64,000 bases of DNA from Squalus acanthias. Taxonomy: Eukaryota. The DNA is taken from NCBI GenBank assembly GCA_030390025.1, contig CM059430.1, positions 72,788,001-72,852,000 on the forward strand, written 5' to 3'. The translations under genes were made by a program, and so were the position numbers. Under the pieces are notes generated by a model, which was not told the DNA's origin, did no database searches, and saw nothing but the letters and a program-made list of their open reading frames with translations. Positions 205 to 48,806 of this stretch are shown piece by piece (position 1 is the stretch's first letter; every line of letters starts with the position of its first letter).

Positions 205-640
205 AATTACATTATAAATGGTAGGACACTTCGACGTGCAGAAGATCAGATGGGACCTTGGAGAGCATGTCCACAGATCCTTGACGGTAGCAGGACAGCT
301 AGATAAGGTGGTTAAGAATGCATACGGGATACTTGCCTTCATAACCCGAGGCATAGAATATAAGAGCAGGGAGGTTATGCTTGAACTGTATAAAACACTA
401 GTTAGGCCACAGCTAGAATACTAGGTGCAGTTCTGGTCACCGCTTTACAGGACTGATGTGATTATACTGGAGGGGGTTAAGAGGAGATTTACGAGGATGT
501 TGCCTGGGCTGGGGAATTTTATCTATGAGGAAAGATTGGATAGGCTGGGGTTGTTTTATTTGGAACAGAGGAGGCTGAGGGGGACCGAATTGAGGTTTAA
601 AAAGTTGTGAGGGGCCTAGATAGACTGCATAGGAAGGACC
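205..640 (+). mobile_element. CR1 LINE ORF2 C-terminal fragment (paralog ~34488-34920)
   Basis: LYKTLVRPQLEY*VQFWSP...RRFTRMLPGL...YEERLDRLGLF. Confidence 0.85.
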
Positions 641-2526: not shown

Positions 2527-3290
2527 GGCCCAGAAATTAGACTTCGATGTTTGCCGCAGGGGTAAGGATCGTGCGCGATCTTACCTACCGCGCCTGCCTT
2601 TATTGTTCGGGCCCACACGAACTTCTGGTCCTGGGGCTCTCCCTGGTGCCGGCGCTCAGTGTGTGCGTGTCCCAGAGGCGCAGTTAGTTCGATGCGACCT
2701 CTGGGATCACGTGGGACAGTTAGAGCCAATGGCAGCACACCATCTTTCATTCATATTTTTTGACAGGAGAACTGTCAAAACTATGAATACAACTTGCCCC
2801 CAAAAGAACAGCTAAACCTCAATTAAATTAAAAAAAAACCATCAGATTAATAAAATAACTATAGTTAAATAAATTAACCACTTTAAACAAAAAATTTAAA
2901 TTTTTGAAAAAATTTAAATTCTTTTTAAAAGTTATAAAAATAAACTTACCTTTCTTTAAAGTCTCTAATAAAGATAAACCTGTTGAAAAAAAATTAAAAT
3001 AATACTTAATTAACTACTTACCTTGCTAAAAGGGGGTCTTACGCCTCCTTTTTTCATGTGTAAAATCTTCCATTCTGTCCCTCGCGTTCAAAACTGAAAA
3101 AAAAACTAATTGTGCTGCGTGCGCACAGCCTGTCATGCGCACGCGGTTCACTTAGGAACCGCCCCCTTCGCAATATCGGAAGTGCCGGTTTCCCGCGCAT
3201 GCGCAGTGCATGCAGGAAACCGGCACTTCGGGACCGAATACGGGTGAGTGCACAATGCGTACTCTCCCGTATTCGCCGAATTTCTGGGCC
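2527..3290 (+). mobile_element. Harbinger-type MITE (~760 bp) between older MITE fragments (~2040-2520, ~3300-3826)
   Basis: Perfect TIR GGCCCAGAAATT/AATTTCTGGGCC, flanks aat/tat, GC-rich arms, AT-rich core. Confidence 0.9.
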
Positions 3291-3890
3291 TATATCACAT
3301 TATGCTTCTGGGGATTCGATTTACGTAGGGAATCCCCATAAGCACAATAGGAATCCCCTAAAAAACAGACTTTCACAACACTTTAAAAAAATCATCACAT
3401 GTTCAAAATTTATTATAATACAATTTAGTTAAACATTTAAAACAAATACTTAATATTTTTTAAATATATTTAAACATTTTTCAAGGGACCAAAAATAACC
3501 TAAACAACTTTTAAAGGTCATTATTTGTTTAAATCATTTAAAAAGATTTACTTTAATATTTGATAAATCCTTACGCTGGTAAAATAAGGCCTTATGCCTG
3601 CTTTGACATGGCCTAAGGTTTTCATGGCATTCGCTGGGCAGTAGTTGGGCAATTAGTGAATGTCCATTTTCTGCACATGCGGATGATCTGTCAAGCTGAA
3701 ACTTGACAGATCGCAAGTTCCGGGTTTTCACGCAGGCGTATCGCATGCAGAAACCTGGAACTTGCAGGGCACTTACGGCTGCGTACGCTGTACGTACCTG
3801 GTCATTGGCTCTGGAAAATCTGGGCCAATAGCGTCCTAAATTTAAAGAAAAAAGGAATACCAAATTAGTTCCCTCCAACATGTTCTATAG

Positions 3891-4036
3891 CTTTCCCAGC
3901 TCCGTTACGGATCATTTAGCTGAAGAGAACTCATCTGCTCTGACTCTACTCTGTAAAAGGACAGAGTTCTGCCCGGAGTCTCTCACCTTCACTTAGTATG
4001 AAGATCACACGAACAAAGTGACTGGGATCAACACAG
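3891..4036 (+). pseudogene. Truncated, frameshifted C1-set exon of a related receptor gene
   Basis: Acceptor tgttctatag|. Translates FPAPLRII then SSALTLLCKRTEFCPESLTFT*YEDHTNKVTGINT, aligning with VPPTPLRI..SASLILVCKTAEFYSNDINISWYKDGLKVETGIN of exon 3. Confidence 0.8.
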
Positions 4037-4269
4037 CTTCCTGGACGGGATTCTGTGTTGATCCCAGCTTCCTAGCTTCATTAGGACGGCCAAAATTAGG
4101 ACCACCAGAATCACTCCGCTCCAAACTTTATCCAGGGGATATGGGAGGTGAACAGCATTGGAGAAATGGCAGCAGCTGCCTGAACATCAACTCATCATTG
4201 CAATGCATATGGCATCAAGGAGTCTTCACAATCTGGCGGTCATTTGGGCCAAGTGGAACACCCTTCAGT

Positions 4270-5060
4270 TAGTGATCAATCATCACAGCCGTGCAGGAGT
4301 TCCTAACAGAAGTATCCTCAGCCTAACTATCTTCAGCTGCTCCATCAATGACTTTCACTGCACCATAAGTTCACGAGCGTGGCTGTTAACTGATAATTAT
4401 AGTGTTCAGTTCCAGTGGCAACTCCTTAGCTAATGAATCAGCCTGCAGCAGCAGTAACTTTCAAAAGGGAATTGGATATATACTTGAAAACTAAATACAT
4501 TGCGGAGCTCTGGGGAAAAACCAGGCGAGTGAAGCTATTTGGATAGCTCTTTCAAAGAGCCGACACTGGCACGAAGGGCCGAATGATCTCTCGCTGTGCT
4601 GTATGATTCTATCCTGATTCTATGATACAAGCCCACAACAGGACATTTACAACATTCAATGTGAGGTAACATTCGTGCCACATAAGTGCCAAGCAATGGC
4701 CAGCTCATTGACAAATGAAAAGCATCTCAATTTACACAATGCTTCAACACACCATCTATATCCTGGGCGTGAATCATTGCATAGCAACTTAACCGACACT
4801 GCCATATGAACATCCGTAACTACTGGAGCAGCGCAGAAGCTGAAAGCTTTGCAATGAACTGATTGCCTATCAACCTGTGAGCCTCTTTCTGACATCCACA
4901 AGGCTCAAGTCTAGAATTTGGAAACACAGGCACTATTCGCCCGGATGGGTGCTTCTGAACGCTCAAGTATCTCCGCACTATCCAGAACAACAACAGTTTG
5001 TTTGATTCGCACCCATTTCACAGGAATCCATGTTTGCAGTACGTACTATGTACATGATGC
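4270..5060 (+). mobile_element. Decayed L2 LINE RT fragment with a CR1 3' tail inserted at ~4455-4625
   Basis: VPNRSILSLTIFSCSIND (degenerate VPQGSVLGP.LF..YIND) and a decayed KAQV motif. Paralog ~37445-38210. Confidence 0.55.
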
Positions 5061-6242
5061 ATTGAAACAATCAATTCATCAAAAACTTACCCAGAGTTGA
5101 CAATGGAAAAAAAAAACAAATGTTGAAAGTTTTGACAAGCTTTGGTCCAAAGGAAACATGTTCCTCCCAAGCACGCTACACTTACCAGATGTCATGCTTA
5201 AATTAATCATATGCTGAACTTTTTGGATTAATCTATTTTAAGGTAAATGGGGGTTGATGCAATTCAGTGGTTACTTTTATAAAGCCAACAGATCACCTTG
5301 CCTTATCTCGTTCTTGTCTTGCCATTATTACCTGAGTAATATAGACTTTTGGTGTGGCTTTCAAAGGAAAGAATGCAGGACACGAGGGTGTCGCTATCAG
5401 AAAGTGTTGCCCACATTATTTGCTAACGATTTTTAACCGGCTTATTTATGCCTTATTCAAAATAGGGGCCAAAGGAATGTCATGCACCAGCAAAGTAATG
5501 CTAAGCCAAGTAAATTGTGCTAACTCAATGCCACACATTGTGAAGAGTGAAAAAATCTCAAGATTGACGCCAAAAAAACACTGAAGAGCCAGAATATCAT
5601 TTTAATGATTGGAGAATGCTGCTTTGTTAACCATTAAGCAATTGACTATACAAGAAATAAATTACATTCATCTTGATTTTTTCAAGAAATCAACTTTGTT
5701 CATGTTATGGCTGGATAACGATTTTTAAAATATGTCGTAGCAATTGGTGCATTTCTCTGTTGAAGTATGTTGCCCTGGAAAATCATGGCGGCAGAAGCAC
5801 AACAAAGATACATACAGGGGCAAGTGCCCACGCTTACGCGAGCATTCTGCACGACGACAGTGGTCTCTGCATAGGTGAAAAGATTATGTGATTTTTGTTC
5901 TGGTGTAGATGACCTCGGCTGTTACTCTTTGGGTTTTCAAATGTAACTGAGCATAATCTGAACTCTTGTCCAGAAGTTTAGGCTGTTCTGTTTTCCTGGA
6001 GGCAGCCAATTCCAGCGCAGCGTATGTCAGATTGCTTTCTGTTGTCGCTTGCATTGTCTATAAAGCGAGTGTTGGAGAATATCATTAGTACATGGCCAGT
6101 GCCAGTTTCTTCAGTAGTCAAAGGAGCCATTACATTTAAGAAAGTCAACAGGTAATGGGATTTAAATATAATGAGCAAACTAATTTATTTACTCCGCTAC
6201 CATGGGTGACCTGTGTTTATTTTTTTCTCTACCTACCTGGTC

Positions 6243-6338
6243 CTACAGAGTGCTCTCCTCTTGATACTTAGCGCTTGCAGTTTTCATTGACTTTATCAAA
6301 TCTAATGCAGTGTAAAGCTCCATCTCATTTTCTGATCC
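6243..6338 (-). CDS. Exon 6, cytoplasmic terminal exon with YTAL tyrosine motif (GSENEMELYTALDLIKSMKTASAKYQEESTL*)
   Basis: Acceptor tgatctatgcag|GGA, phase 0. YxxL motif. AATAAA signals at 6216-6221 and 6184-6189. Confidence 0.75.
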   Translation of the reverse strand, partial: GSENEMELYTALDLIKSMKTASAKYQEESTL

Positions 6339-9300
6339 CTGCATAGATCACAAAGTAATGTATATTATATTGTTTACTCATTATCTTAGTGACACTGCAG
6401 TGTATGGATTACTGTTTGAACCGAACGGTCTGTAATACTAAAACCAGAGTTGGAAAGTGAAGCTTTAAAATAAATCCACTTGGAGCTTATTTTATTTCTC
6501 AATAATTTGATAGTATATCATTAGGGTACAATATTATATTTTACTCTCTCAATGTGGACTATAGTCATGTTATAACTTATGGTTGTTACACAAGTTACGG
6601 CTTAGTACGCCCAATGTGTGATAGTACAAAGGCATAATGATACCAAAATATCTTGAGATGTTTTGCTCTTACATTTGCACGCGTGTTTGAAAATAACATT
6701 TTATGTTGTTGCTGATTACATTTGCATTATATATTTTGGAAACAATTTCAATTACATGTGAAAAAAACGCAGTTATTACCTTTAGGAGATAAATTGAATT
6801 TAGAATTGTCTCGCTGAAGTATGAAATAAATATTTACTCTACATTTTAAAGGGTTAATGCTTTCCCTTAAGCTGCAAACTGATGTATTTCAGGCCAGTGG
6901 ATTAATTGCATCTATTAAATTATTTCATGCTTAATCTCACAGCCAATTTCTATTTGCTTAACAAATGTATGAAAAGAACCTACCAGACCTTCTGGATGTG
7001 GTGGTTGTTCCATGGAATCCCCTGTTCCTGGTAATGAATGGACTTGAAAATTTGAACATGAATTATTTTCTAATATCGTTCTCCATGATTCCAAAACCAT
7101 TTAATGTAGGCTTAATACAAAGTCCAACTTTATGTTCAGTAACACATTATAGAACTTGTTGGATATCTCTATTTGTTCAAGCTTTACTTTCAAATTACCA
7201 TCTCCAGATTTTGTTAATTTATTGAGTCCTTCTCGAGCCAATTTCCACGGGGACAAGAGGCTTCCTCCTTTGAGCATGGCCCTGAAATTGCGGATTCTGT
7301 AACGGCATACTCTCAGAGTACATCATTGTATTCATTTTGAAATGCCCCGTAAGTTTAAATTTCCTCAAGTGCGTGCATATATCTGGAAATTGAGGCCTCT
7401 CAATGTACACGTTGACAGGCCATATGCGGGAAACTCGAAAAAGCAATCGCTGGCGCAGAGTTCAGCTGTTTACCCAGCGATTGGCCAGCAATTGCACACG
7501 TAGGTCCTACAGTTGATGAAAGCAGGCATGGGCCTGTTTGTATCAGCGTAAGGAGATATCTAAGGCTTAAATTAAACATTTTTAATATCCAAAAATTATG
7601 CACATATACTGTATTAAATGAGTTTATGCAAATATTAGACTGTATTACAGTTTTAAATACGTATGAAATTATCAAAAAATATTTTTTTACCGAGGTTGGT
7701 GTAATGAAGGTACTTTTGAATAAAATTCCAAATTTCAACATTGTATAATTATTAGATTTGGGAATTCCATTGCATATTATTAGGGGATTCCATTCGAAAA
7801 TGATTGGAGTGGTATTCTGTTTATGGATTGGAGGACTGGGCCCACGTGATGGCAGATACGCTTCCGATGCTCCTGCATCCTGGGATCTGTGGTTCATTAC
7901 ACTGCCTCCGCCTCGAGGCCTGAGACCACAACTTTTCGCAGTCAGGGCAACAGGAGATACTTTCGTAATTGTTTCATGGGTCGGAGGCATTATCCGGAAT
8001 TATGTTTCTGACGGCATTTTCTAGCCTGTTACTTGACGGGAAAGCGCACCGCATTAGACCCTGCTCTCAACTCACTTCCACAAAGGTAAGGCACCAGCAG
8101 AAAGAGGTCAGAGAACTTTAGATACAACACGAGAAACTTTCTCCTACCCACTCCAGAGATGTGAAAGGCAATACGGCCACTTTATTGCTGCGTGACAGAT
8201 TATTAAACTCAGTGCATGGGTTCTAGTACCCCATCTCCCTGGGTCCTATCATCAACAGCACAACATGTCATCCATTTGCAACAGAGAAGAAACAACTTCT
8301 CATTTATGTAGCGCGTTCTAGGACATTAAGACATCCCAATGCGCTTCTCTAACGAAACGTACTTTGGAAGTTTAATCAATGTTGTAACGGAAGGAAAAGC
8401 GGTGGCTAATTGATCACAGAAAGGTCGTGCATACAGTAATGCGATAAATAAGCAATTCAATTGTTTTACCGATGTACATTGCGGATACATGTTTTGCAGG
8501 ACACCGATAGATCTTCCAGTCCTCCTTAAATAGTCCCAAGAGATCTTTTACATCCACTTCAGCGGGCAGACGGAGACTGGTTTTCAGTTTTCATCCGAAA
8601 GCTCTCCCTCAGTACGGCACTGGGTTATAGGCCTAAATTATGTGCTTAACACTTCGACCTCTGATTATGAGGTGAGAATGCTACTACTGATCCAAGGCTG
8701 ACATTAACTTACTTCATCCCTACCCTCACATTATCAAGGAATACTAAAGGACACAATGAAACGGGAAAATTTCATACCTTTACATATTATTGACGGATAT
8801 CGCTTCCTCATGATTATCAGGAGCAACAGAATTAAGATTGCACCTCCTGCGGATCGATAGAGCTTTATGTACCATTTTGCGTTGTCAGCTCCTGTAAAAT
8901 AAATGTCAAAAATAAAGTTTGAAATTGAACATTTTGAGAAAGTTTTCTGCAGACCCACCTTTCAATGTCGCCAACCATTCTTTTGAGTATTTATTTCAAT
9001 TTTCGGGAGTCCCGCAGCATAAAGAGACCGTTAAACATTTCATTGATCTTCTTATTTTTCCTTTTCCATTACAAGTCGTTATGATTACTTTATATCTAAA
9101 GAGAATATTACTACTGCATTTATAAAATGGAGCACAATTAAACCACCAACCCTGAGTAATACTGAAGACGATTATCCTTGGACTTTAGTTTTTATACCAC
9201 ATGTTAACTAGGAATTAGATATGATATTTGATTCCTAGATTAGTCACCAGTGCTTGGTGAACAAGTTGTGCTGTTTCGAGAATTCAACAGCTTCAGTTTC

Positions 9301-12300
9301 ACTTTTACTGAAATCAGCAATTTATTTCCAGAATTGTTTAAACTGAAGTTAAATTCTCAAAATACCATGGCGTGATTATCAGTCCAGGCGTCTGGGTTAC
9401 TTTTTCCGTACAATAACAATTATATTACAATACCTCAGCTCTCTAATTAAAAAAGTTCAGTACAAAGACCTATTCGCCAACAGACCTGGAAAAATCTTCT
9501 TAAATCCATATTCTCAAACTACCATGGCGTGATTATTGGTCCAGGCGTCTGGATTACATAATAATTATACTACAATACTTCCGCTCTCTAATAAAAAAAA
9601 AGTTCAGTACAAAGACCCGTTAGCCAACAGAACTTAAAAAATCTGCTTAATCCATATTTTTTTTTCCTATAAAGAGTGATAACCCATCAATGCTCCTTTA
9701 AAGGATTGTTGTCAAAATTGCGCAAATGCCAAATACGGTCCATAATCTTTGGTATCCGTCTTGGGTCAGATGTTCCTTGCATATGTAATAATTAGATTTT
9801 TACCTCCAGTGCTGTTTGAAATGAATCGGAAGTCAGTTGCCGTTTGGACGGTGAGATGACTTGCCAGGCAGGTATAAATAGTCCCGCTCTTGACAGGCTG
9901 TGACTCTTCCAAAAAGCTGGAAACTTCATACAGACCTTTTTCATTTAGCTGTATTTCGGCGTTTATCCCGGTCTCAACTTTCAAACCATCCTTGTACCAA
10001 GAAATATTGATATCATTTGAGTAAAATTCAGCAGTTTTACACACAAGAATCAAAGAAGCAGATGCATTACGATCAGCCTCATTGCAGTCAATACGCAGTG
10101 GGGTTGGAGGAACTGTGGAACAAGATACAGAAGAGATTAGAACTGACTGAGCTCTTTCAGAATGTATGAAGTAATTCAATTTTTTACCACATCAAAGCCA
10201 ATATGACATTAATACTTTCCAAACATTAATTGGCATGTTTATTTATAGAAACGTTGCGTGGATTTTCAACTTGCTGTCTGGGCGGGAATCAGACGATGTT
10301 GAGCAGCAACTCGGCATCAAGTTGAAAATCTAGCCCATTAATTAAACGATTACAATTTCTATTGAGACATTGGTGAGCTAAACATGATACCGTCGAGATC
10401 AATGCTAGAAAGAATATAGATGGAAGATATAAAGGTTTGGAGGTTTTTGAGATTATTGCAACACATATATATCTCAATATAACTCATAATTAAGAGTAGG
10501 TAGAAGGGGATTCGATGTATAATATGGTTTACAACACATCGCATTTTACAGGGCTAAGCTTTTAATTGAAAAAAGAGACCATTTCACGATCAAATTGTTT
10601 TTATGTTGGTTATAAATTCACATTGAACACCATTCACCTTAACAGGAATATTTTAGAAAGTTGACAGACGGTTTAATAACTGTCGAGACAGTTTTACTGA
10701 GTTAGAGACTCTTTCGAAGTAATTATTGTGAAGAGTGTTGGAAAGGTTAATGTAAAATACAGATAACACGTAGTTTAAGAACGGCAGTAAGTGAAGAACC
10801 ATAGCTGGAGGAAACGCAAAGCAGAAGAAAATAGATCAACGGGAAAGTTACTGAGAACTCGCCGTATAGTGACCCGAAGTTTAAACCAGCATGCTTCAGA
10901 GAGAGATGTAACGGTCCGAAACCAACAATTAACTTGCCATCTAAGGGTAGAGCTTAATCGTCATATTCTCTTTCAAGCGGCAGATTTACCAATGAAAGTC
11001 AAACTTTCGTCCTCGCTAAAATAAACTATACTCAATTATAACCAGCAAATTATGTTACATTGTGATAGTGAATGATGTTCATTGTTTGTTGATTTAGCTT
11101 GTCTACGCTAAATATTAAGAATGCATTCGTAATGATATTAATGCATCTTCAATGTTGAATCTCTTGTTCACCACTAGCTGCAATTTAGTGGATGTAATTA
11201 AGTAAATTGATCAGTGGCAAACCACTTTCACGTTCAATTCTTGGTCGCGTTCTTAATCAATTTTTTAAATGTCTCTTTACCGAACACGTTCGTTCCCAAA
11301 CGTTAATTGAACCGAATTGTGTATAAATAAAGCAAGGTATTGAATACGAATTTCATTGTAAACTCCAAAAGGCTTAAAACAAACGCTTGGCGGCCCCAAA
11401 CATGAATGGCAACAAAAAGAATTCTTGCACCGTGTTTGTTTTGTTTGCTTTAAACATTTAGTGGAATAGTTTCAGGTACAAATTACCGTGGATGAGAAGC
11501 TTTGACCCAGTTCCATTTCCCATCCGACTACCCGGATGTTTCACTCCGCAGCAATAAACTCCGGAGTCCGCGGCGCTGACATTCAGGAGCTGAAGGGAGG
11601 CCTCTCCTTTCTTCAAAGGAAGAAATCGTTTTCTGCTGTCATTAACAGACTGTAGAAACTCATTTTCTCCCAGTTTCCACCAGTAAACAGTCACATCGGA
11701 ATTATCTTGTAAAAAAGGGAACGCGCAATAGAAAGTAATGTTTCCACCTGCGATCACGATGGCGTTTTCAGGGGCTTGGATCACACTTAACTGAACACCG
11801 GAAACAGCTGTGAGGAAATTAATGCCAATAATAATGAGATATATCGCAGACACACAGCTTGCTGACAATAATCATCGACTTCTGATAGTAACGTATATTT
11901 GCTGAGGATTAAATTAAATCTTTGTCAGCGATATCTGATGCTACAAGCGCTGTCTATAACGAATCATTTTAAACGATGAGATCTGTCGGCGCTGCTGTGT
12001 ATTTAATCTGCCTTGCTCCCACATTTCTCTTAAAACTAACCTGATGTGAAGCGCAGACAACACCAGTACATTTTGAATTGCACATGTCTTCACAAACAGA
12101 CAATGATCAGACAATGAAAACATCAACTGAGATATGGTTGATGCGACGCAGGGACTAAGATCTTGATATAACACATAACGAAAGGACTTCCACTAGACTG
12201 TGTTTCTTGTTTTATGTTCAATTGACGTATTAATACATTCTAACACCAGATTCAATTTGAAAATAGTCTCGTGGCACTAGCCATGGACCTTTCATCAACC

Positions 12301-13633
12301 ATGCAATAGAATCCGCATGTCTTTCTCTAGCTCAACATCCTTGAGCAAGGGCACCGGCATCATTCAATGATGCAGTCCAAGTCCCTGTCCAAGTGCAGTA
12401 CACTACAATCGTATATATTAAATTATATCTACCAGATTCGGTTAATTCCTCTATTTAATCCTGTTTTGTCTGCAATCTTATTTTATTTCATCCACGGTCT
12501 TTATATCCGCAGATATGTTCGTGCAATCTACGCACTTGCAAATAACATCCCCATGCCTTTACCCAAATAATTGATAAATAATGCAATGGTCCTAACGATT
12601 AATAACTATATTGTGTGTCCCTGATTAGAACAGGTTCCTTGTCCAACCCTAACCAAATGCTGCTTGCAAATACCACAATGATCAACCTATCTTAGTAGCC
12701 TTTTGTGCAGAACTCTACAAACCTCTGTTTTAGTAGTCTAGATATAAAATATCAATATGATTGCCTCAAATACCAACTTTGTAAATTATTGGGCACAAGT
12801 GCAACGTAGTTTGTGAGACACGACCTTCCATTTCATAAACCATGTCTGGATTCCCTATTAAACTCATCCATTAGAATTGATAGTACAGCGCATCTCTAAT
12901 AATTGTATAGTTCCGAGGTTCTCACTTAGACCATTTTTGAAATTTGGGAAGTCGTGGCCCCCTCACGGGTCCATGGGGAGAAACACAGGCATAATACAAC
13001 TACTAAATTTATAAACAACTGGCTGACATAGCACAGGCCACATTTACTGGAACACACTCGGGAGAATGTCTTCAAGGTCAGCACCCCGATCTATTTTACG
13101 AGCACTAACTGAAGCAAGGACTACATCCGTATCCAGTTCAACAGGTTTACTTTTACCATTAGCCTCATGTCGTCGTATTGGTAAACCAGCATCTTTGAAT
13201 GTAGTGAAGGCAGATGCGAAGTAAGCTTTTAAAACGTTTGACATATCCTGGGACTCCGCCTGAAGCTGCCCAGATGACCGTTCAGTGATCTAGTACTTTC
13301 CTTGGTGAGCCTGTAATGTTCAACATATTTGCAAATTACTAACTATTAATACGACCCCGATTCAATCTTCTCCATCCGTGTCTTTGTCTCTAATCATACA
13401 GATTCTTACATTTATTCTTGGGGCTTGTATAACATTGGACCTCTGAGCGAAAAAGTGACCAACTATAACCAGAAATAACTCCAACACATACCATATACAA
13501 CAGAGTTCAGATTTCCTGCGTCCTCCGTGTCTTGCTTTTGATATATTAAAACATGATATTAATAGAAAGGAAAACTCATGGATATACCTGTATAAGCAAT
13601 CGCGGAGGTCAATATCCAGGGAAACACAATCAT
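6243..13633 (-). CDS. Spliced IgSF receptor gene, copy 1: leader-VJ-C1-TM-cyt1-cyt2, 314 aa (exons 13588-13633, 11487-11807, 9804-10112, 8778-8891, 6984-7042, 6243-6338)
   Basis: All five introns are GT-AG with compatible phases (1,1,1,1,0). Exon lengths 46+321+309+114+59+96 = 945 nt give an open frame ending in TAG. All exons are recognisable in the paralogous copy. AATAAA at 6184-6189 (minus). Confidence 0.85.
6984..7042 (-). CDS. Exon 5, cytoplasmic (VHSLPGTGDSMEQPPHPEGL)
   Basis: Acceptor aaattttcaag|TC, donor CTG|gtaggt. 59 nt converts phase 1 to phase 0. Conserved at 40096-40154. Confidence 0.75.
7375..8027. mobile_element. Older Harbinger-type MITE in intron 4 (paralog ~40490-41147; relative at 20191-20910)
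   Basis: Termini ctggaaattg / cattttctagcc. Same internal layout as 20191-20910. Confidence 0.65.
8285..8703 (-). mobile_element. Decayed tRNA/Deu-domain SINE in intron 4
   Basis: Aligns with the younger copy at 52106-52568. Confidence 0.65.
8778..8891 (-). CDS. Exon 4, transmembrane (GADNAKWYIKLYRSAGGAILILLLLIIMRKRYPSIICK)
   Basis: Acceptor atttattttacag|GA, donor AAAG|gtatga. Hydrophobic run followed by an RKR stop-transfer. Conserved in copy 2. Confidence 0.88.
9353..9658 (+). repeat. Tandem duplication of a ~155-bp unit in intron 3
   Basis: ttctcaa..accatggcgtgattat..gtccaggcgtctgg..agttcagtacaaagacc..gccaacag..atccatatt occurs twice here and once in copy 2 (~42460-42620). Confidence 0.85.
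9804..10112 (-). CDS. Exon 3, C1-set Ig domain
   Basis: Acceptor tcttgttccacag|TT, donor GGAG|gtaaaa. Motifs LVCKTAEFY, ISWYKDG, GLYEVSSFL, YTCLASH. Confidence 0.95.
11487..11807 (-). CDS. Exon 2, V-set Ig domain with germline J-like G strand
   Basis: Acceptor aatttcctcacag|CT, donor CACG|gtaatt. Motifs TFYC, VYWW, ASLQLLNV, DSGVYCC, GNGTGSKLLI. Confidence 0.95.
12270..13450 (-). mobile_element. Old CR1 LINE RT fragment in intron 1 (paralog ~46000-47150)
   Basis: MSNVLKAYFASAFT...GADLEDILPSV matches CR1 MA..LN.YFASVFT...SPGPDGIHPRV. Confidence 0.65.
13588..13633 (-). CDS. Exon 1, signal peptide MIVFPWILTSAIAYT(A)
   Basis: ATG...ACAG|gtatat, 46 nt, phase 1. Hydrophobic; the paralog at 48075-48120 reads MIMFQWILIFANAYT. 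Completed by AVSG at the start of the V exon. Confidence 0.75.
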
Positions 13634-29775: not shown

Positions 29776-29778
29776 ACT

Positions 29779-37209: not shown

Positions 37210-40200
37210 TTCCTGGACGGGATGCTGTGTTCATCCCAGCTTCCTAGCTTCATTAGGACGGCCAAAATGAGGACCTAGAATCACTCAGCTCCAACCCTTA
37301 TTCAGGGAATATGGGAGCTGAACAGCATTGGGAGAATTAGCAGCAGCTGCCTGAACATCAACTCATTATTGCAATGCGTGTGGCATCAAGGAGCCTTCAC
37401 AATCTGGAGGTCATTTGGGACAAGTGGAACACCCTTCAGTTGGTGATCAATCATCGCAGATGAGCAGGAGTTCCTTACAGAAGTATCCTTAGCCTAAGTA
37501 TCTTCAACTGCTCCATCAATGACCTCCATTCCACAGTACGTTCACGAGCGTGGCTGTTAACTAATAATTATAGTATTCAGCTCCAGTGGCACGTCCTCAG
37601 GTAAAGAATATGCCTACAGCAGCAGTAACTTTAAAAAGGGAATTGGAACTATACTTAAAAACGAAATACATTGCGGGACAATGGCGAAAAACCAGGAGTG
37701 TGAAACTACTTGGCTAGCTCTTACAAAGAGCCGACACTGGCACGATGGGCTAAATGACTTCTTGCTGTGCTTGTATGACACTATTCGGAGTCTATAATTC
37801 CAGCCCACGACAGGACATATACAACATTCAATGTGAGTTTACAATCTTGCCAAGCAATGGCCAGCTCATTGATCAAGGAAAAGCACGTCAATTTCCCTAA
37901 TGCTTCAACACATTAACTATATCCTGGGCGTTAATCTTTCGTTAGCAACTTAACCGACCCTGCCATATGAACAACCGTAACTACTGGAGCAGCGCAGAAG
38001 CTGAAAGTTTTGCAATGAATATAATCTATCAACCTGTGAGCCTCTTTCTGAGATCCACAAGGCTCAAGTCTGGAATTTGGAAACATAGGCACTATTCGCC
38101 CGGATGGTTGCTTCTGAACGCTCAAGTATCTCTGCGCTATCCAGAACACCAACAGTTGTTTGATTCGCACCCATTTCACAGGAATCCATGGGTGCAGTAC
38201 GTACTATGTACATGATCTATTGAAACAATCAATTAATCAACAACATACCAGAGTTGACAATGGAAAAAAAATAAAGTGGAAAGCTTTGACAAGCATTGGT
38301 CCAAAGTAAACTTGTTCCTCCCAAGAATGCTACACTTACCAGATGCCATCTCTTAAATTACTCATATGCTGAAGTTTTTGGATTAATCTATTTTAAGGTA
38401 GATGGGGGTTGATGCAACTTAGTGGTTACATTTATAAAGCCAACAGGCCACCTTGCCTTATCTCGTTCTTGTCTTACCATTATTATCTGAGTAATATAGA
38501 CTTTTGGTGTGGCTTTTGTAGGAAAGAACGCAGCACACAAGGGTGTCGCTATCAGAAAGGGTTGCCCACATTATTTTGCTAACGTTTTTGAAACGGCTTA
38601 TAAATGCCTGTTTAAAAATAAAGGTCAAAGCGATGTCATACAACAGCAAGGCAATGCTAAGCCCAAGTAAATTGTGCTAAGACAATGCCACAAATTGTGA
38701 AGAGTGCAAAAAACTCAAGATTGAAGACAAAAAACACTGAAGAGCCAGAATATCATTTTAATGATTGGACAATGCTGCGTTGTTAACCATTAAGCAATTG
38801 ACTATACAAGAAGTAAATAACATTCATCTTAATTTTTTCATGAAATCAACTTTGTTAATGTTATGGCTGGATAACGATTTATAAAATAAGTCGTAGCAAT
38901 CGGTGCATATTTCTGTTGAAGTATGTTGCCCTGGAAAATAATGGCGGCAGAAGCAGAACAAAGTTACATACAGGGGCAAGTGTCCAGGCTGACGCGAGCA
39001 TTCTGCATGACGACAGTGGTATCTGCGTAGGTGAAAACATTAGGTGATTTTTGGTCCGGTGTAGATGACCTCGGCTGTTACTCTTTGGGTTTTCAAGTGT
39101 AACCGGACATAATCTGAACTCTTGTCCTGAAGTTTAGGCTGTTCTGTTTTCCTGGAGCCAGCCAATTCCAGCGCAGCGTATGTCAGATTGCTATCTGTTG
39201 TCGCTTGCTTTGTCTGTAAAGCGAGTGTTGGAGAATATCATTAATATATGGCCGGTGCCAGTTTGTTCAGTAGTCAAAGGAGCCATTACATTTAAGAAAG
39301 TCAACAGGTAATGCGATTTAAATAAGATGAGCAAACTAATTTATTTACTCCGCTATCATGGGTGACCTGTGTTTATTTTATTCTCAACCTACCTGTGCCT
39401 ACAGAGTGCTCTCCTCTTGATACTTAGCACTTGCAGTTTTCATTGGCTTTATCAAACCTAATGCAGTGAAAGCTCCATCTCATTTTCTGATCCCTGCATA
39501 GATCACAAAATAATGCATGTTATATTGTTTACTCATTATCTTAGTGACACTGCAGTGTATGGATTACACGTTGAACCGAACGGTCTGTAATATTAAAAAC
39601 AGAGTTGGAAAGTGAAGCTTTAAAATAAATCCACTTCGAGCTTTTTTTAGCTCTCAATAATTTTAGACTATATCATTAGGCCACTATATTATATTTTACT
39701 CTCTCAATGTGGACTATAGTCATGTTCTAACTTATGCTTGTTACACAAGTTACTATTTTGTGTGATAGCACAAAGGCCTAATGATACCTAAATTACTTGA
39801 GGTGTTTTGCTCTGACATGTGCATGCGTGTTTGAAAATAACATTTTATGTGGTTGCTGATTACATTAGCATTATATATTTTGAACAATTTCAATTACATG
39901 TGAGCAAAAACGCAGAATTGTCTCGCTGAAATATTAAATAAATATTTACTCTAAATTTTAAAGGGTTAATGCTTTCCCTTAAGCAACGAAATGATGTATT
40001 TCAGCTAAGTGGATTAATTGCATCTATGAAAGTATTTCATGCTTAATCACACAGACAGTTTCTATTTGCTTAACAAATGTATGAAAAGAACCTACCAGAC
40101 CTTCTGGATGTGTTGGTTGTTCCATGGATGCCCCTGTTCCTGGTAATGAATGAACTTGAAAATTTGAACATAAATTACTTATTGATATCGTTCTCCATGA

Positions 40201-43200
40201 TTCCAAAAAAATTTCATGTAGGCTTAATACAGTCCAACTTATTGTTCAGTAACACATTCTAGAACTTGTTGGATATCTCTATTTTTTCAAGCTTTACTGT
40301 CAAATTCCCATCTCCAGATTTTGTTAAAATTATTGAGTCCTACTCTCGTCAATTTCCACGGGGTCAAGAGGCTTCCTACCTTGAGCATGGCCCTGAAATT
40401 GCGGATTCTGTGACGGCATAATCTCAGAGTACATCATTGTATTGCTTTTGAAATGCCCCGTAAGTTCCGGATTTCCTCAAGTGCTTGCATATATCTGGAA
40501 ATTGAGGCCTGTCAATGTACACGTTGACAGGACATATGCGTGAAACCCGAAAAAGCAATCGCTGGTGCAGAGTTGAGCTATTTCCCCAGCGATTGACCAG
40601 CAACTGCCCACGCATGTCTTACAGTTGATGAAAGCAGGCATGGGCCTTTTTGTATCAGCGTAAGGAGATATCTAAGGCTTAAATTAAACATTTTTACTAT
40701 CCAAAATTATGCACATACACCGTATTAAACGAGGTTATGCAAATATTAGACTGTATTACAGTTTTAAATACGTATGAAATTATCAAAAAATATTTTTTTA
40801 CCGAGGTTGGTGCAACGAAGGTACTTTTGAAGAAAATTCCAAATTTGAACATTATATAATTCTTAGATTTGGGAATTTCATTGCATATCATTGGGGGATT
40901 CCCTTCGTAAATGATTGGAATGTTATTATGTTTATGGATTGGAAGACTGGGCCCAAATGATCGCAGATACGCTTCCGATGCGCAGGCATCCTGGGATCTG
41001 TGGATCTGTGGATCATTACGCTGCCCTCCGCCTCGAGGCCTGAGACTACAACTTTTCGCAGTCAGGGCACCAGGAGATACTTTCCTAATTGTTTCATGGG
41101 TCGGAGGCATACTCCGGAATTATGCTTCTGACGGCATTTTCTAGCCTGTTACTTGACGGGAAAGCGCACCGCATTAGATCCTGCCCTCATCTCACTTCCA
41201 CCAGCTGATAGAGGTCAGAGAATTTTAGATACAACACGAGAAACTTTTTCCTACCCACTCCAGAGCGCTGAAAGTAAATACGGCCACTTTATTGCTCCGT
41301 GACAGATTATTAAACTCAGTGCATTGGTTCTAGTGCTACATCTACCTGGGTCCTATCATCAAAAGCACAACATGTCATCCATTTGCAAGAGAGAAGAAAT
41401 AACTTCTCATTTATGTAGCGCTTTCTAGGACGTTAAGGCATCCCAATGCGCTTCTCTAACGAAACGTACTTTGGAAGTTTAATCAATGTTGTAATGTAAG
41501 GAAAAGCGGCGGCGAATTGATCATAGATAGGTCGTGCATAGAGTCATGCGATAAATAAGCAATTCAATTGTTTTCCGATACACATTGGGGATACATGTTT
41601 TGCAGGACACCGATAGATCTTCCAGTCCTGCTTAAATATTCCCAAGAGATCTTTTACATCCACTTCAGCGGGCAGACGGAGACTGGTTTTCAGTTTTCAT
41701 CCGAAAGCTCTCCCTCAGTACGGCACTGGTTTGTCGTTCTAAATGATGTGCTTAACTCTCCGACCTCTGATTATCAGGTGAAAATGCTTCTACTGATCCA
41801 AGGCTGACATTAACTTACTTCATCCCTAACCTCACATTATCAAGGAAATACTAAAGGACACAATGAAACGGGAAAATTTCATACCTTTACATATTATTAA
41901 TGGATATCGCTTCCTCATGATTATCAGGAGCAACAGCATTAAGATTGCACCTCCTGCGGATCGATAGACCTGCAAGTAGCATTGCGCGTTCCCATCTCCT
42001 GTAAAATAAATGTCAAAACTAAAATTTGAAATTGAACATTTTGAGAAAGTTTTCTGCAGATCCACCTTTCAATGTCGCCTACTATTCTTTTGAACATTTA
42101 TTTCAATTTTCGGGAGTCCCGCAGCATAAAGAGACGGTTAAACATTTTATTGATCTTCTTATTTTTCCTTTTCCATTTCAAGTCGTTATGATTACTTTAA
42201 ATCTAAAGAAAATTTTACTACTGCATTTATAAAATGGAGCACGATTAAACCTCCACCCCTGAGTAATACTGAAGACGATTATATTGGGACTTTAGTTTTT
42301 AGACACATGTTAACTAGCAATTAGATATGATAGTTGATTCCTAGATTAGTCACCAGTGTGTGGTAAACAAGATGTGCTGTTTCGAGATTTCAACAGCTTC
42401 AGTTTTAATTTTTACTGAAACCAGCATTTTATTCCCAGAATAGTTTAAACTGAAGTTAAATTATCAAACTACCATGGCGTAATGATCGGTCCAGGCGTCT
42501 GGGTTACTATTTCCGTACAATAACAATTATATTACAATACCTCAGCTCTCTAATAGAAAACGATCAGAACAAAGACCTGTTCGCCAACAGATCTGGAATA
42601 ATCTACTTAAATCTATATTATTGTTCCTATGAAGAGTGAAAACCCATCAATGCTCTTTTAAAGGATTGTGGACAAAATTGTGCAAATGCCAAATACGGTC
42701 CATAATCTTTGGTACCCGTCTTGGGTCAGATGTTCCTTGCATTTGTTATAATTAGATTTTTTACCTCCAGTACTTTTTGAAATGAATCGGAAGTCAGTTG
42801 CCGTTTGGACGGTGAGATGAAATGCCTGGCAGGTATAAATAGTCCCGCTCTTGACAGGCTGTGACTCTTCCAAAAAGCTGGAAACTTCATACAGACCTTT
42901 TTCATTTATCTGTATAACGGCGTTTATCCCGGTCTCAACTTTCAAACCATCCTTGTACCAAGTAATAATATCATTTCGGTAAAATTCAGCAGTTTTACAC
43001 ACAAGAATCAAAGAAGCAGATGCATTACGATCAGCCTCATTGCAGTCAATACGCAGAGGGCTTGGGGGAACTGTGGAACAAGATACAGAAGAGATTAGAA
43101 CTGACTGAGCTCTTTCAGAATGTATGAAGTAATTCTATTTTCTACCAGATTAATTCAACGTGACATTAATACTTTCGAAACATTAAATGGCATGTTCATT

Positions 43201-44714
43201 TATAGAAACGTTGGGTGGATTTTCAACTTGCTGTCTGGGCGGGAAACAGACGATGTTGATCGGCAACTCGGCATCACGTTGAAAATCTATCCCATTAATT
43301 AAAGGATTACAATTTCTACTGAGACGTTGGTGAGTTAAACATGATACCGTCAAGATCAATGCTAGAAAGAATATAGATGGAAGATATAACGGTTTGGAGG
43401 GTTTTGAGATTATTGCAAATCATATATATCTCAATATAAATAATAATTAAGAGCAGGTAGAAAGGGATTCGATGGATAATATGTTTACAACACTTCGCAT
43501 TTTACAGGGCTAAGCTTTTAAATCAAAAAAATATCCTTTCACGATCAAATTGTTTTAATGTTGTTTATAAAAGCATATTGAACACCATTCACCTTAACTG
43601 GAATATTTTAGAAAATTACCAGACGGTTTAGTAACTGTCGAGACAGTTTTACTGGGTTAGAGACTCTTTTGAAGTAATTATTGTGAAGAGTGTTGGAAAG
43701 ATTAATTTAAAATATAGATAATACGTAGTTAAAGAATGGCAATTAGTGAAGTAACATAGCTGGAGGAAACGCAAAGCAGAAGAAACTAGATCAATGGGAA
43801 AGTTAGTGAGAACTTGCCGTAGAGGGACCTGATGTTTAAGCCAGAGTGCTGCAGAGAGAGATGTAACGGTTCGAAAGCAACAATTAACTTGCCATCTAAG
43901 AGAAGAGCTTATTCATCATATTCTCATTCAAGCGGCAGACTTACCAATGAAAGTGAAGCAGTCGTCCTTGCTAAAATAAACTGTACTCAATTATAAACCA
44001 GCAAATTATGTTACATCGTGATAGGGAATGGTGTTTATTGCGCTCTGTATGTTGATTTTGCTTAGCTACGCTAATTATTAATAATGCATTCGTAATGATA
44101 TTAATGCATCATCAATGTTGAACCTCAAGTTCACCACTAGCTGTAATTAGTGGATGGAATTAAGTAAATTAATCAGTGGCAAACCTCTTTCACGTTCAAT
44201 TCTTGTTCGCGTTCTTAATCAAGTGTTTAAATGTCTCTTTACCGTACGTTGTGTTACATTCGTGTTCGTTCCCAAACATTATTTGAACGAATTGTGTATA
44301 AATAAAGCAAGGTATTGAATAAGAATTTAATTGTAAATTCCAAAAGGCTTAAAACAAACGCGTGGATGCCCGAAACATGAATGACGATAAACAAAATTAT
44401 TGCACCGTGTATGTTTTAATTGTATTAAACATTTAGTGGAATAGTTTCAGGTACAAATTAACGTAGATGAGAAGCTTTGACCCAGTTCCATTTCCCATCC
44501 GAGTACCCGGATGTTTCACTCCACAGCAATAAACTCCAGAGTCCGCGGCGCTGATATTCAGGAGGCGAAGAGAGGCCTTTCCTTTCTTCAAAGGAGGAAA
44601 TCGTTTTCTGCTGTCATTACCTGACTGTAGAAACTCATTTTCTTCCAGTTTCCACCAGTGAACAGTCACATCGGAATTATGTTGTAAAAAAGGGAATGCG
44701 CAATAGAAAGTAAT

Positions 44715-45469
44715 GGCCTAGAAATTCGGGTGGCCGGCTTGCCGCGGGAGTTAGGATCGCGCGCGCTCTTACCTACCGCGCCTGCCGTTGTGTTTCGGGC
44801 CCACAGGAACTTCGGGTACTGGGCCTCTCCTTAGTGCTGGCGCGCAGTGCTTGCGTGTCCCAGGGGCGCAGTTAGTGCGATGCGACCTCTGGGATCACGT
44901 GTGCCATGGAGAGCCAATGGCAGGAGACATTCTTTCATTCATAGATTTGACAGGCGACCTATCAAATCTGTGAATTGAAATCGGCCCCAAAAGAACAGCT
45001 AAACCTCTAATAAATTTTTGAAAAAAATCACATTAATAACATAACTATAGTTAAATAAATTAACCACTTTAAACAAAAATTTAAATTTTTGAAATAAATT
45101 ATATTCTTTTTAAAAGATATAAAAATAAACTTACCTTTCTTTAAAGTCGCTAAAAAAGATAAACCTGTTGAAAAAAATTTAAATTTTTACTTAATTAACT
45201 AATTACTCTGTTCAAAAGGGGTCTCCTTTTTACTTGTGTAGAATCTTCCAAACTTACCCTCCCGTTGAAACTTGAAAAAAAACCTAAGTGTGCTGCGTGC
45301 GCGCAGCCTCCATTGCGTACGCCGTTCACCTACGAACCGCCCCCTTCGCCATACCGGAAGTGCCGATTTCCCGCGCATGCGCAGTGCATCCAGGAAACCG
45401 GCACTTCGGGAACGAATACGGGTGAGTACGCAGCGGGTACTCTCCCGTATTCGGCCGAATTTTTGGGAC
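44715..45469 (+). mobile_element. Harbinger MITE, subfamily Y, inserted in the V exon of copy 2
   Basis: TIR GGCCTAGAAATTCGG / CCGAATTTTTGGGAC, TSD aat/att. Empty site agtaatgtttcc in copy 1 (~11734-11745). Confidence 0.95.
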
Positions 45470-47293
45470 ATTGTTTCCACCTGCGATCACGTTTTCAGGG
45501 GCTTGGATCACACTTAACTGAACACCGGAAACAGCTGTTAGGAAATAAATGCAAACAGTAATGAGATATACCGCACAAACACAGCTTGCTGACAATAATC
45601 ATCGACTTCTGATAGTAGGTTATATTTGCTGAGGATTAAATTCAATCCTTGTCAACGATATCTGATCCTACAAGCGCTGTCTCTAACGAGTTCATTTTAA
45701 ACGATGTAATCTGTCGGCGCTGCTGTTTATTTAATGTGCCTAGCTAGCACATTTCTATTCTTAAAACTAACCTGATGTGAAGCGCAGACCACACAAGTAC
45801 ATTTTGAATTGCACATGTCTTCAGGAACAGACAATGATCAGACAATGAACACATCAACTGAGATATGGTTAATGCGAAGCAAGGACTATGATCTTGACAT
45901 AACTCAGGACGAAAGGACTTTCACTGGACTTTGTTTCTTGTTTTATGTTCAATTGACGTGGTAATACATCCTAACACCAGATTCACTTCGACAATTGTCT
46001 CGTTGCACTGACCATGGATCTTTCATCAAACATGAAATGTAATCCTCCTGTCTTTCTCCAGCTCAACATCCTTGAAGCAAAGGACCCGGCCTCATTCAAA
46101 GATGCAGTTGCCCCTATCCAAGTGCAGCACACTACATTCGTCTAGATTAAATTATATCTACCAGATTCGGTTAATTCCTCTATTTAATCTAGTTTTGTCT
46201 GCAAACATATTTTATTTTATCCACGGTCTTTATATCCACAGATATGTTCGTGCAATCTACGCACTTGCAGATAACATCCCATGCCTTTACCCAAATAATT
46301 GATAAATAATGCAATGGTCCTAACGATTAATAACTATATTCTGTGTCCCTGAAAAAAGCAGGTTCCTTGTCCATCCCAAACCAAAACCTGCATACAAATG
46401 CCACAATACTCAGCCTACCTTATTAGCCCTTTGTGCCGGACTGTATTGACCTCTTTTTTAAAAGTCTAGATATGCAATATCAATATGACTGTCTCATCTA
46501 CCAACTTTGTAAATTCTTGGGAAAAGTGCAACGAAGTTGGTGAGACACGACCTTCTATTTCATAAACCATGTCTGGATTCCGTAATAATCTCATCATTTC
46601 GAATTGATAGTACAGCGCATCTCTAATAATTGTATAATTTGGAGTTTCTCACTCAGACAATTTTTGAAATGTTGGGAAGACGAGGCCCCCTCACGGGTCC
46701 ATGGACAGCATCACAGATAATTTTACAATATAACTACTAAATTTATACACAATTGGCTGGCATAGCACAGGCCACATTCATTGGAACACACTCGGTAGAA
46801 TGTCTTCAAGGTCAGCACCCCGACTTATTTTCCGAGCAGTAACTGCAGCAAGGACTGCATCCGTATCCAGTTCAACAGATTTACTTTTAATATCAGCCTC
46901 ATGTCGTCGTATTGGTAACACAACATCTTTGAACGTAGTAAAGGCAGGTGTAAAGTAAGCTTTTAAATTTTTTCTCATATCCTGGTACTCCCCCTGAACC
47001 TGCCCAGAGGATCGCTCAATGGTCAAGTACTTTCCTTGGTGAGCCTGTGATGTTTCAACAAAGTTAAAATTACCTTACTATTAATACGACCCCGATACAA
47101 GCTTCTCCATCCGTGTCTTTATCTCTAATCATACAAATTCTTACATTTATCCTAATGCCTGAACCTTGGTGATTAAATAACATTGGAACTCTGAGCGAAA
47201 ATGTGACCAACTATAACCATAAATAATACCAACGCATACCATATAAAAGGAGTTCAGATTTCCAGCGTCCGCCGTATCTTGCTTTTGATATAT

Positions 47294-48031
47294 GGCCCAG
47301 AAATTGATCTCGCTCTGTTCCCGCGGGGGTAAGGAGCAGGCGCGATCTCTCACTCCGCGTTGGCTTTTTCAGATCCAGCTCGCACGAACTTGATGTTCCA
47401 GACATCAGCTGGGCAGTGCTTGCGTATCCCACCGGCGTAGTGAATTCGTGCGAGCTGTGGGATCACGTGACTCAGTTCGAGCCAATGGCAGCACACCATC
47501 TTCCATTCATAAGTTTCACATACGTGCTGTGAAAGCTATGAATCTTACACACCCCCAAAATAACAGCTAAACCTGAATTAAATTAAAAAAAAACCATCAC
47601 ATTAATAAAATAAGTTTAGTTAAATAAATTAACCATTTTAAATAAAAAATTAAATTTAAAAAAAAATTTAAAATCTTTTAAAAAGTTATAAAAATAAACT
47701 TACCTGTCTTTAAAGTCTCTAAAAAAGATATACCTGTTAAAAAAAATTCAAAATAATACTTAATTCACTACTTACCTTGTTAAAAGTGGGTCTTACTCCT
47801 TTTTTCATTTCTAAAATCCACCGTCCTTACCTGCGCGTCCAAAGCACGAAGTGCACAGCGTGCGTGCAGCCTGTAGCGCGCACGCGGTGCACCGAGGAAC
47901 CGCCCCTTTTCCAAAAACCAAGTGCCGGTTTTCAGCGCATGCGCAGGGCATGCAGAAAACCGGCAATTGGAGAGAGAATACGCGAGAGTACACAGTGCCT
48001 GCTCTCGCGTAGCGGCATCAATTTTTGGCCC
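47294..48031 (+). mobile_element. Harbinger MITE, subfamily X, in intron 1 of copy 2
   Basis: Closely similar to 14321-15063. Empty site ttttgatatattaaaac at ~13536-13552. Confidence 0.92.
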
Positions 48032-48806
48032 ATTAAAACAGGATATTAATAGAAAAGAAAACTCATGGATATACCTGTATATGCATTCGCGAAGATCAAT
48101 ATCCATTGAAACATAATCATATTTAGAAATTGAATTGACTGCAGGCTACAGGTAGGCGCCATCCTCTGATGGTTTGGAAATACTGACTTACTCCGAACAT
48201 GATTCGAACTGAGAGATGATGACGCATGAGTCTAAAACTGCCCTCAGTAACATAATTTATTTTAAGCGTTAAGAGCTGTGCCCGCGGTTGTGCGTTCATG
48301 ATGGACTATAACTTGATCACACTATTTAATCTGAAAAGCTGTAGTAGCAGTAAATATATCTTTAAAGAATTAGATAAAACTTTTGGAGAAATTATTTAGC
48401 TCGACATTTGAAGTTGTTGCTAAAGTTTATGGACTCAAATAAAGTCAACACGACTGGCCGATTTCACACAGCGCCATACGCACTCTTGTACATGCAACTA
48501 AATTTAAGCCAAAATGATAGCTAACCACCATCACTACAGCAGACTGCGGCCTCAGGCTTGCACCTCCATTGCAATACACATAAGAAGTGCAACTGATACT
48601 GCGGGCTCTGCCTGGAATTGCGTACAATGAACGTAGACATTTGTGAGTTTGTGTTTGGCGTTTTCCATCTGCCTGTTTAACAGCTGAAGATTTCATTTGA
48701 GCGTTATGTCTTACTGATGTAACAGTAGTTCATACAATATACTTCATAAAACAGCCGTTGATCAAATTCAGCGAGCAGACCAGAAACACCAATGTAGAAA
48801 GATAAT

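What the first reader, a model, noticed from the sequence alone, without database searches (positions are those of the whole stretch)
6190..6338. Stop codon sits where an ITSM tyrosine would be: possible inhibitory-to-activating conversion
Seen: the tail ends EESTL-TAG, and the frame continues DQVGREKNKHRSPMVAE-TAA (copy 2: TL-TAG-AQV). One base change (TAG to TAY) restores TLYDQV/TLYAQV, a TxYxxV ITSM, 23 residues after YTAL. Both paralogs share the TAG, so it predates the duplication. Inference: the ancestor had a tandem ITIM-like/ITSM tail and lost the distal motif, as happens in paired-receptor families.
Basis: partly seen in the sequence, partly recalled or inferred. Interest (0 to 1): 0.7.

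Follow-up and report, generated by a model that had tools for sequence, protein, structure and literature searches.

The report
Shark immune receptor lost inhibitory tail
A stop codon that replaced an old tyrosine cuts the inhibitory signalling tail off a shark-like fish's immune receptor that also has an activating-type charge in its membrane segment, a switch well known from mammalian killer-cell receptors.

Summary
The stop is real and replaces an ancestral Tyr, but the lost motif is not an ITSM. The gene is a minus-strand, seven-exon V-C1-TM receptor of a chondrichthyan family labelled 'SIRP-like'. The closest named relative (Heptranchias, 72% in V and C1) reads TVYAQT at the TAG. That exon is still open and holds two ITIM-consensus motifs, so the stop removes the whole inhibitory exon. 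Both copies carry a transmembrane Arg (relative: Gly). Among relatives, 16 of 17 Arg proteins versus 27 of 57 others have at most one Yxx[LVI] motif, and the link holds in phylogenetically independent pairs. Copy 1 looks intact and constrained; copy 2 is a pseudogene that frameshifts before the TAG. Best reading (0.55): a 314-aa activating-type member of a paired-receptor family, formed as short-tailed KIRs were. The order of Arg gain and tail loss is unknown. Exon 6 can be skipped in frame, which would restore the ITIMs. Expression and adaptor binding are untested.

The parts
13588..13633 (-). Copy 1 exon 1, leader (ATG at 13633)
   Evidence: matches P0001 1-26
11487..11807 (-). Copy 1 exon 2, Ig V domain with joined J-like GxG strand
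   Evidence: Pfam V-set E 3.1e-9; 76 of 106 residues identical to P0001
9804..10112 (-). Copy 1 exon 3, Ig C1 domain
   Evidence: Pfam C1-set E 1.8e-10; 73 of 102 identical to P0001
8778..8891 (-). Copy 1 exon 4, transmembrane exon; Arg238 codon CGA at 8856-8854 near the outer end of the helix (Gly in P0001)
   Evidence: best 19-residue hydropathy window is residues 234-252, mean 1.98
6984..7042 (-). Copy 1 exon 5, first cytoplasmic exon, ends in phase 0
6237..6338 (-). Copy 1 exon 6, 102 nt, phase 0-0; holds ELYTAL (6320-6303) and the TAG
6243..6245 (-). TAG at the ancestral Tyr codon, 6 nt before the last exon junction
6058..6236 (-).
   Evidence: donor CAG|GTAGGT, acceptor ...tttatag|ACA; gap in the match to P0001
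5884..6057 (-). Copy 1 exon 7, open frame behind the stop: LTYAAL (6030-6013) and SDYAQL (5961-5944), both ITIM consensus, plus VIYTRT (5913-5896)
39040..48120 (-). Copy 2, pseudogene (upper limit approximate): about 760-nt element in the V exon (about 44715-45470), V donor GT to TT, 1-nt deletion in exon 6, TAG 39401-39399, Arg codon 41963-41961, open exon 7 39213-39040

Best explanation
Copy 1 encodes a 314-aa type I receptor (leader, V, C1, TM, about 60-aa tail) of a clustered chondrichthyan paired-receptor family. Shown from sequence: a TAY-to-TAG change in the penultimate exon, shared with paralogues, puts the ITIM exon behind the stop; the TM has an Arg near its outer end. Inferred: the stop is 6 nt from the last junction, so the mRNA should escape nonsense-mediated decay (50-nt rule, recalled). 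The short protein would then signal through an FcR-gamma/CD3-zeta-type adaptor via the Arg, without SHP-recruiting ITIMs: an activating-type receptor made from an ITIM-bearing ancestor, as in short-tailed KIR. The ancestor may already have been dual (Arg plus ITIMs). Copy 2 later decayed.
For: Tyr at the stop column in the closest relative and in 19 of 30 aligned tails. Exon 7 has two ITIM-consensus motifs, and the truncated tail has none. Arg at the same TM column goes with at most one Yxx[LVI] in 16 of 17 relatives versus 27 of 57 without Arg (Fisher p 5e-4). Arg changes state 12 times on the ectodomain tree; in 12 independent pairs the tail goes the same way in 7.2 and the other way in 0.0 on average (median p 0.016). 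The Arg-bearing Pristis relative in the same supported clade (7 rows, SH-aLRT 99) lost its ITIM exon another way: its model tail is an out-of-frame reading of that exon (23 of 33 positions compatible; 0 of 1,000 shuffles reach it). Copy 1 looks constrained: V+C1 differ from copy 2 at 30 of 621 sites versus 9.2% in introns (p 3e-5), and derived amino-acid changes are 9 versus 23 in copy 2 (p 0.02), 1 versus 8 in V. The TAG is in other assemblies: one X1 contig whose 7 differences equal the 7 of copy 2, loose ends of a third type in X1 and X5, and one organism-B contig at low depth. Precedent: PMC2213150 and PMC1440944 passages.
Against: No transcript or protein evidence was obtained. The TM limits are uncertain: Arg238 is 5th in the best hydropathy window and could lie at the membrane edge, and Lys235 sits beside it. 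27 of 57 non-Arg relatives also lack long tails, many probably truncated gene models, so the association rests on automatic annotation. By my own crude count the window protein keeps 2 Yxx[LVI] (YPSI next to the membrane, and YTAL), the cell where only 1 of 17 Arg relatives falls; it groups with them by tail length and by having no ITIM consensus. The sign test ranged up to p 0.06 over pairings, and the tree is the quick one. Mustelus P0036 keeps Arg with one ITIM-type motif, so Arg does not force tail loss. Exon 7 is still open in both copies.
Confidence: 0.55

Rival explanations
1. Exon 6 is a cassette. Skipping it gives a 340-aa Arg-plus-two-ITIM receptor, and inclusion gives the short form, so one gene yields both signalling types (or only the long one).
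For: Exon 6 is 102 nt, phase 0-0, and the skipped form is open to the normal stop. Exon 7 is open in both copies with its splice acceptor. Models of P0008, P0023, P0036 and P0019 lack an exon-6 equivalent. Against P0001, exon 7 has 1 derived change in copy 1 versus 4 in copy 2, 3 unresolved.
Against: Exon 6 has the strongest donor of the gene. An open exon 7 is expected by chance 30% of the time at this divergence. Its divergence, 11 of 174, is not below the intron rate (p 0.11). At 5972, 6002 and 6037 every listed contig carries the copy-2 letter, which puts these amino-acid changes on the copy-1 line; for 6037 this conflicts with the P0001 polarity.
Confidence: 0.17
2. Copy 1 is a non-signalling or dying gene: the TAG is one lesion of birth-and-death decay, and the product, if any, is a decoy.
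For: Copy 2 is dead, a third type has a further 1-nt deletion just before the TAG, and the copy-2 deletion is also seen in organism B. Overall pN 0.056 versus pS 0.071 between the copies. A broken C1 fragment lies beside each copy.
Against: Copy 1 has an open frame and GT-AG sites at all six introns. Its V and C1 exons are conserved and derived changes fall mostly on copy 2, although the TAG is older than the duplication.
Confidence: 0.22
3. One reading: only a distal ITSM (TxYxxV) was lost from an ITIM/ITSM tandem in the last exon.
For: The genomic frame does read TL-stop-DQV; 3 of 19 Tyr-bearing relatives fit TxYxx[VI] at this site.
Against: The V codon begins the intron, exon 7 follows, and the closest relatives read TVYAQT.
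Confidence: 0.02
4. The TAG is an assembly error, a rare allele, or is read through.
For: A sequence type with the ancestral EERTV residues exists in X1, X5 and X6, and its letter at the stop could not be read (51 rows not shown).
Against: The TAG is in both window copies and in contigs of three runs and two organism labels. The following bases are not a read-through context that I recognise (recalled, not tested).
Confidence: 0.04

Closest known systems
Short-tailed activating KIR (KIR2DS/3DS) and activating Ly49 (Abi-Rached and Parham 2005, PMC2213150; 12 passages seen)
   Same: A basic TM residue plus a stop codon that removes the ITIMs of an inhibitory homologue. For rat Ly49s3, and macaque KIR3DH derived from KIR2DL4, a dual charged-plus-ITIM state came first.
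   Different: Unrelated ectodomain (V-C1). Arg at the outer TM end rather than central Lys/DAP12. The stop hits a non-ITIM Tyr one exon upstream and leaves the ITIM exon intact behind it.
FcR-gamma-coupled receptors such as Fc-alpha-RI (Feng et al. 2006, PMC1440944; 12 passages seen)
   Same: Arg in the N-terminal TM segment (position 3 in Fc-alpha-RI; here 3 to 5, depending on where the helix starts).
   Different: No adaptor binding shown here; an extra Lys three residues before the Arg in copy 1.
Mammalian SIRP alpha/beta pair (architecture recalled)
   Same: V plus C1 ectodomain, Tyr-rich inhibitory tails beside short-tailed charged members; NCBI labels many relatives 'PTPNS1/SIRP-like'.
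   Different: One C1, not two; Arg, not Lys. P0001 matches SIRP-alpha (2wng, E 1.7e-12) no better than antibody chains. Other relatives are labelled B7H6-, tapasin- or light-chain-like, so the labels do not show orthology.
UrIg/UrIg2 non-rearranging VJ-C1 genes of elasmobranchs (PMC12227049 abstract and 2 passages; PMC10751288 8 passages)
   Same: Unsplit V with J-like strand followed by C1.
   Different: UrIg2 has nine C1 domains; the text has no occurrence of 'ITIM'; only a generic Ig match (9dmx, E 1e-12).

Membership tests
ITSM | TxYxxV/I in the spliced protein (consensus as in PMC11599192 passage) | tested here: not met
   Spliced +3 is Thr; no ITSM in either isoform; family +3 is T in 12, V/I in 4, other in 3 of 19
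ITIM-bearing inhibitory receptor (ancestral state) | [ILVS]xYxx[ILV] motifs in the tail (consensus recalled) | tested here: met
   LTYAAL and SDYAQL in exon 7; two in P0001. They lie behind the stop when exon 6 is included.
Activating paired receptor (adaptor-coupled) | Basic residue in the TM at an adaptor-binding position | tested here: inconclusive
   Arg238 is in the family's Arg column; helix limits known only from hydropathy
Activating paired receptor (adaptor-coupled) | No ITIM in the translated tail | tested here: met
   0 ITIM-consensus motifs in the exon-6-including product; not true of the skipped form
Activating paired receptor (adaptor-coupled) | An inhibitory counterpart with a similar ectodomain in the same genome | tested here: inconclusive
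   5 contigs of X1 cover 6241; an EERTV type exists but its Tyr/stop letter is hidden. No genome is held.
Activating paired receptor (adaptor-coupled) | Expression and assembly with an ITAM adaptor | not testable with these tools
   No expression or binding data obtained
SIRP family (canonical) | V-C1-C1 ectodomain (recalled) | tested here: not met
   One V and one C1 exon per copy; family-wide tblastn finds no second C1 between C1 and TM
SIRP family (canonical) | Orthology by synteny or tree; CD47 binding | not tested
   No flanking genes recognised in the window; no tetrapod SIRP was placed in the tree
Chondrichthyan V-C1 'PTPNS1-like' cluster | Ectodomain groups with named shark and ray members; same tail layout | tested here: met
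   Supported clade with P0001, P0010, P0019, P0020, P0102; matches to P0001 from leader to last exon

The most novel reading that the evidence does not exclude
The fixed stop makes exon 6 a splice switch: inclusion gives an Arg-only activating receptor, and skipping gives an Arg-plus-two-ITIM receptor. One gene would then supply both members of a receptor pair, in a shark and ray family that has flipped its signalling sign about a dozen times at one Gly/Arg position.
Probability: 0.15. Interest if true: 0.68.

Novelty: new member of a known kind. Interest (0 to 1): 0.42.

Why it matters
The mechanism is textbook for KIR and Ly49. What may be new is the setting: a clustered V-C1 receptor family of sharks, rays and chimaeras in which TM Arg and tail loss go together repeatedly, with this gene still carrying its ITIM exon intact behind a single stop. 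If confirmed, recurrent sign switching of paired receptors extends to the oldest jawed-vertebrate lineage, and this gene is a clean test case (one codon for the tail, one base for the Arg). I found no description of the family in 8 library searches (listings only). The library lacks most subscription immunology journals and no supplements were read, so it may be in print.

Tried and rejected
No whole genome is held for this window, so other paralogues could not be read directly. No RNA holder was listed among 10 runs; this says nothing about expression. Run X7 laid 0 contigs. The Tyr/stop state of the EERTV-type sequence could not be read because 51 difference rows were not shown, and I could not work out the rule by which rows were kept. 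A tail-only homologue search with P0001 225-377 returned only P0001, 1 of 212 candidates. The PDB search gave generic Ig matches. Earlier scan findings: nothing by place, sequence or words. Selection on exon 7 was tested and is inconclusive. The careful tree did not finish; the quick tree was used. An ITAM reading of YTAL...YQEE was rejected: the second Tyr lacks +3 L/I and the spacing is wrong (consensus recalled). A hemITAM-like reading of the acidic ENEMELYTAL was considered; it rests on memory only and was not tested. No structure or complex was predicted.

Full report
Observation. A self-comparison shows a tandem duplicate about 33 kb away, and the duplicate has the same TAG.

Gene. Copy 1 has a leader (13633-13588), a V exon (11807-11487; Pfam V-set), a C1 exon (10112-9804; Pfam C1-set), a TM exon (8891-8778) and three cytoplasmic exons. 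All six introns are GT-AG and the frame is open for 314 residues. The closest named protein is Heptranchias perlo XP_067853494.1 (P0001), 72% identical in V and in C1. It matches the window from leader to C-terminus. All hits that were named are sharks, rays or Callorhinchus.

What the stop replaces. P0001 reads KYQEERTVYAQTKQG..., so the TAG sits on a Tyr. I took the 172 stored proteins and kept those of at most 620 aa with a C1 hit, which gave 103 distinct tails. Of these, 61 were 60 aa or longer, 32 aligned over the stop column, and 30 scored 45 or more (dropped: one Tyr, one Asn). 19 of the 30 have Tyr. Some of the other 11 are misalignments, and near-duplicates are counted separately. Position +3 is Thr in 12 and Val or Ile in 4 of the 19, and 3 fit TxYxx[VI]. 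Exon 7 (6057-5884) starts with Thr, matches P0001 321-377 at 65%, and ends at the same KIT-stop. It carries LTYAAL and SDYAQL, both ITIM consensus (recalled pattern), and VIYTRT. So the stop removes no ITSM; it puts the whole ITIM exon behind the stop. The remaining ELYTAL is not ITIM consensus.

Copy 2. It has an insertion of about 760 nt in the V exon, a V donor changed to TT, and a 1-nt deletion in exon 6 that ends its frame before the TAG. It is a pseudogene. The shared TAG still dates the stop before the duplication, unless gene conversion spread it.

Other samples. No RNA holder was listed. Of 4 DNA runs laid, 3 gave contigs. Five X1 contigs cover 6241, so there are more sequence types than the window's two. 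The TAG can be inferred in one X1 contig whose 7 differences equal copy 2's 7, in loose ends of X1 and X5 that show a further 1-nt deletion next to it, and in one organism-B contig whose 3 differences are all listed (depth 2.6). A type with the ancestral EERTV residues is in all three runs. Its letter at the stop is not visible because 51 rows were cut, so an intact paralogue is neither shown nor excluded.

Transmembrane Arg. Both copies have CGA (Arg238) where P0001 has Gly. It is 5th in the best hydropathy window. PMC1440944 (12 passages) states that FcR-gamma-coupled receptors carry Arg in the N-terminal TM segment. Of the 103 tails, 77 had a detectable TM and 74 had a residue in this column. 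16 of 17 Arg proteins have at most one Yxx[LVI], versus 27 of 57 others (p 5e-4). On the quick ectodomain tree the Arg state changes 12 times. In 12 independent pairs the tail trait goes the same way 7.2 times and the other way 0.0 times on average (median p 0.016, range 0.004-0.06); with tail length under 65 aa the figures are 8.8 versus 0.2. Caveats: these are automatic gene models, many short tails may be truncations, and the crude motif count gives the window protein itself 2 (YPSI, YTAL). In the window's own clade (SH-aLRT 99), Heptranchias and Hemitrygon have Gly with full tails, Mobula has Arg with a 12-aa tail, and Pristis has Arg with a frameshifted ITIM exon. Mustelus P0036, nearby, has Arg with one ITIM-type motif. 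Whether Arg came before the stop cannot be read from an unrooted ectodomain tree; a dual ancestor fits well.

Is copy 1 alive, and is exon 7 used? V+C1 differ between the copies at 30 of 621 sites, versus 588 of 6,359 in introns (p 3e-5). Derived amino-acid changes against P0001 are 9 in copy 1 and 23 in copy 2 (p 0.02). This fits a constrained copy 1, but would not reveal a recent death. Exon 7 differs at 11 of 174 sites (p 0.11 against the intron rate) and would stay open 30% of the time under neutral change. Polarity by P0001 gives 1 versus 4, while the laid contigs put three amino-acid changes on copy 1's line. Exon 7 is therefore neither shown to be constrained nor shown to be free. Exon 6 is 102 nt in phase 0-0, and skipping it gives an open 340-aa product with both ITIMs; several relatives' models lack this exon.

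Mechanism. Most likely (0.55) the gene makes a short, Arg-bearing, ITIM-less receptor that escapes decay because the stop is 6 nt from the last junction (rule recalled) and signals through an ITAM adaptor. Expression, escape from decay and adaptor binding are all inferred. Rivals: decay or decoy 0.22, splice switch 0.17, error, rare allele or read-through 0.04, ITSM-only loss 0.02.

Comparison and novelty. PMC2213150 (12 passages) describes the same two changes, a charged TM residue and a stop removing ITIMs, for activating KIR, and a dual intermediate for rat Ly49s3. The process is thus known. The gene works like a SIRP-type paired receptor but fails the canonical V-C1-C1 test, and the database labels are inconsistent. 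PMC12227049 (abstract, 2 passages), PMC10751288 (8 passages) and PMC11599192 (12 passages) did not describe this family in what I saw. Eight searches listed no paper on it by title or abstract start; supplements were not read and subscription journals are mostly missing. Verdict: a new member of a known kind, interest 0.42.

Noticed in passing
window 8-18483 versus 34290-51053: A block of about 17-18 kb is tandemly duplicated at about 87-92% identity and holds the two gene copies.
   Followed up: partly
window 3895-4038 and 37004-37213, + strand: A broken C1-domain fragment of the same family lies on the opposite strand downstream of each copy; the first has an in-frame stop.
   Followed up: no
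window about 44715-45470 (and related copies near 2520-3290, 14440-15060, 29010-30530, 35950-36610, 47290-49570, 61000-61750): A family of about 750-nt elements. The one in copy 2's V exon has imperfect inverted ends and 3-nt flanks AAT/ATT, resembling a PIF/Harbinger MITE (recalled). Transposase-like frames lie at 21383-22018 and 32093-32635.
   Followed up: no
runs X1, X5, X6 laid on 5840-6420: A sequence type with 6248 G>C and 6252 G>C gives EERTV as in Heptranchias and may be an intact Tyr paralogue. An organism-B contig (depth 2.6) has copy 2's deletion but not its other substitutions, hinting at gene conversion.
   Followed up: partly
P0019 (Pristis pectinata model XP_051884715.1): The predicted tail is an out-of-frame reading of the ITIM exon: an independent ITIM loss in an Arg-bearing relative, or an assembly indel.
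   Followed up: yes
   Followed up: no
window 8865-8863 and 6338-6303: Copy 1 has Lys235 three residues before the Arg (Gln in copy 2 and P0001), and both copies have more acidic residues before the exon-6 Tyr than P0001.
   Followed up: no
window 16608-18058, 19510-19869: LINE-type reverse-transcriptase fragments by recalled motifs; the N-terminal part of model P0041 matches one of them, so that model includes repeat sequence.
   Followed up: no
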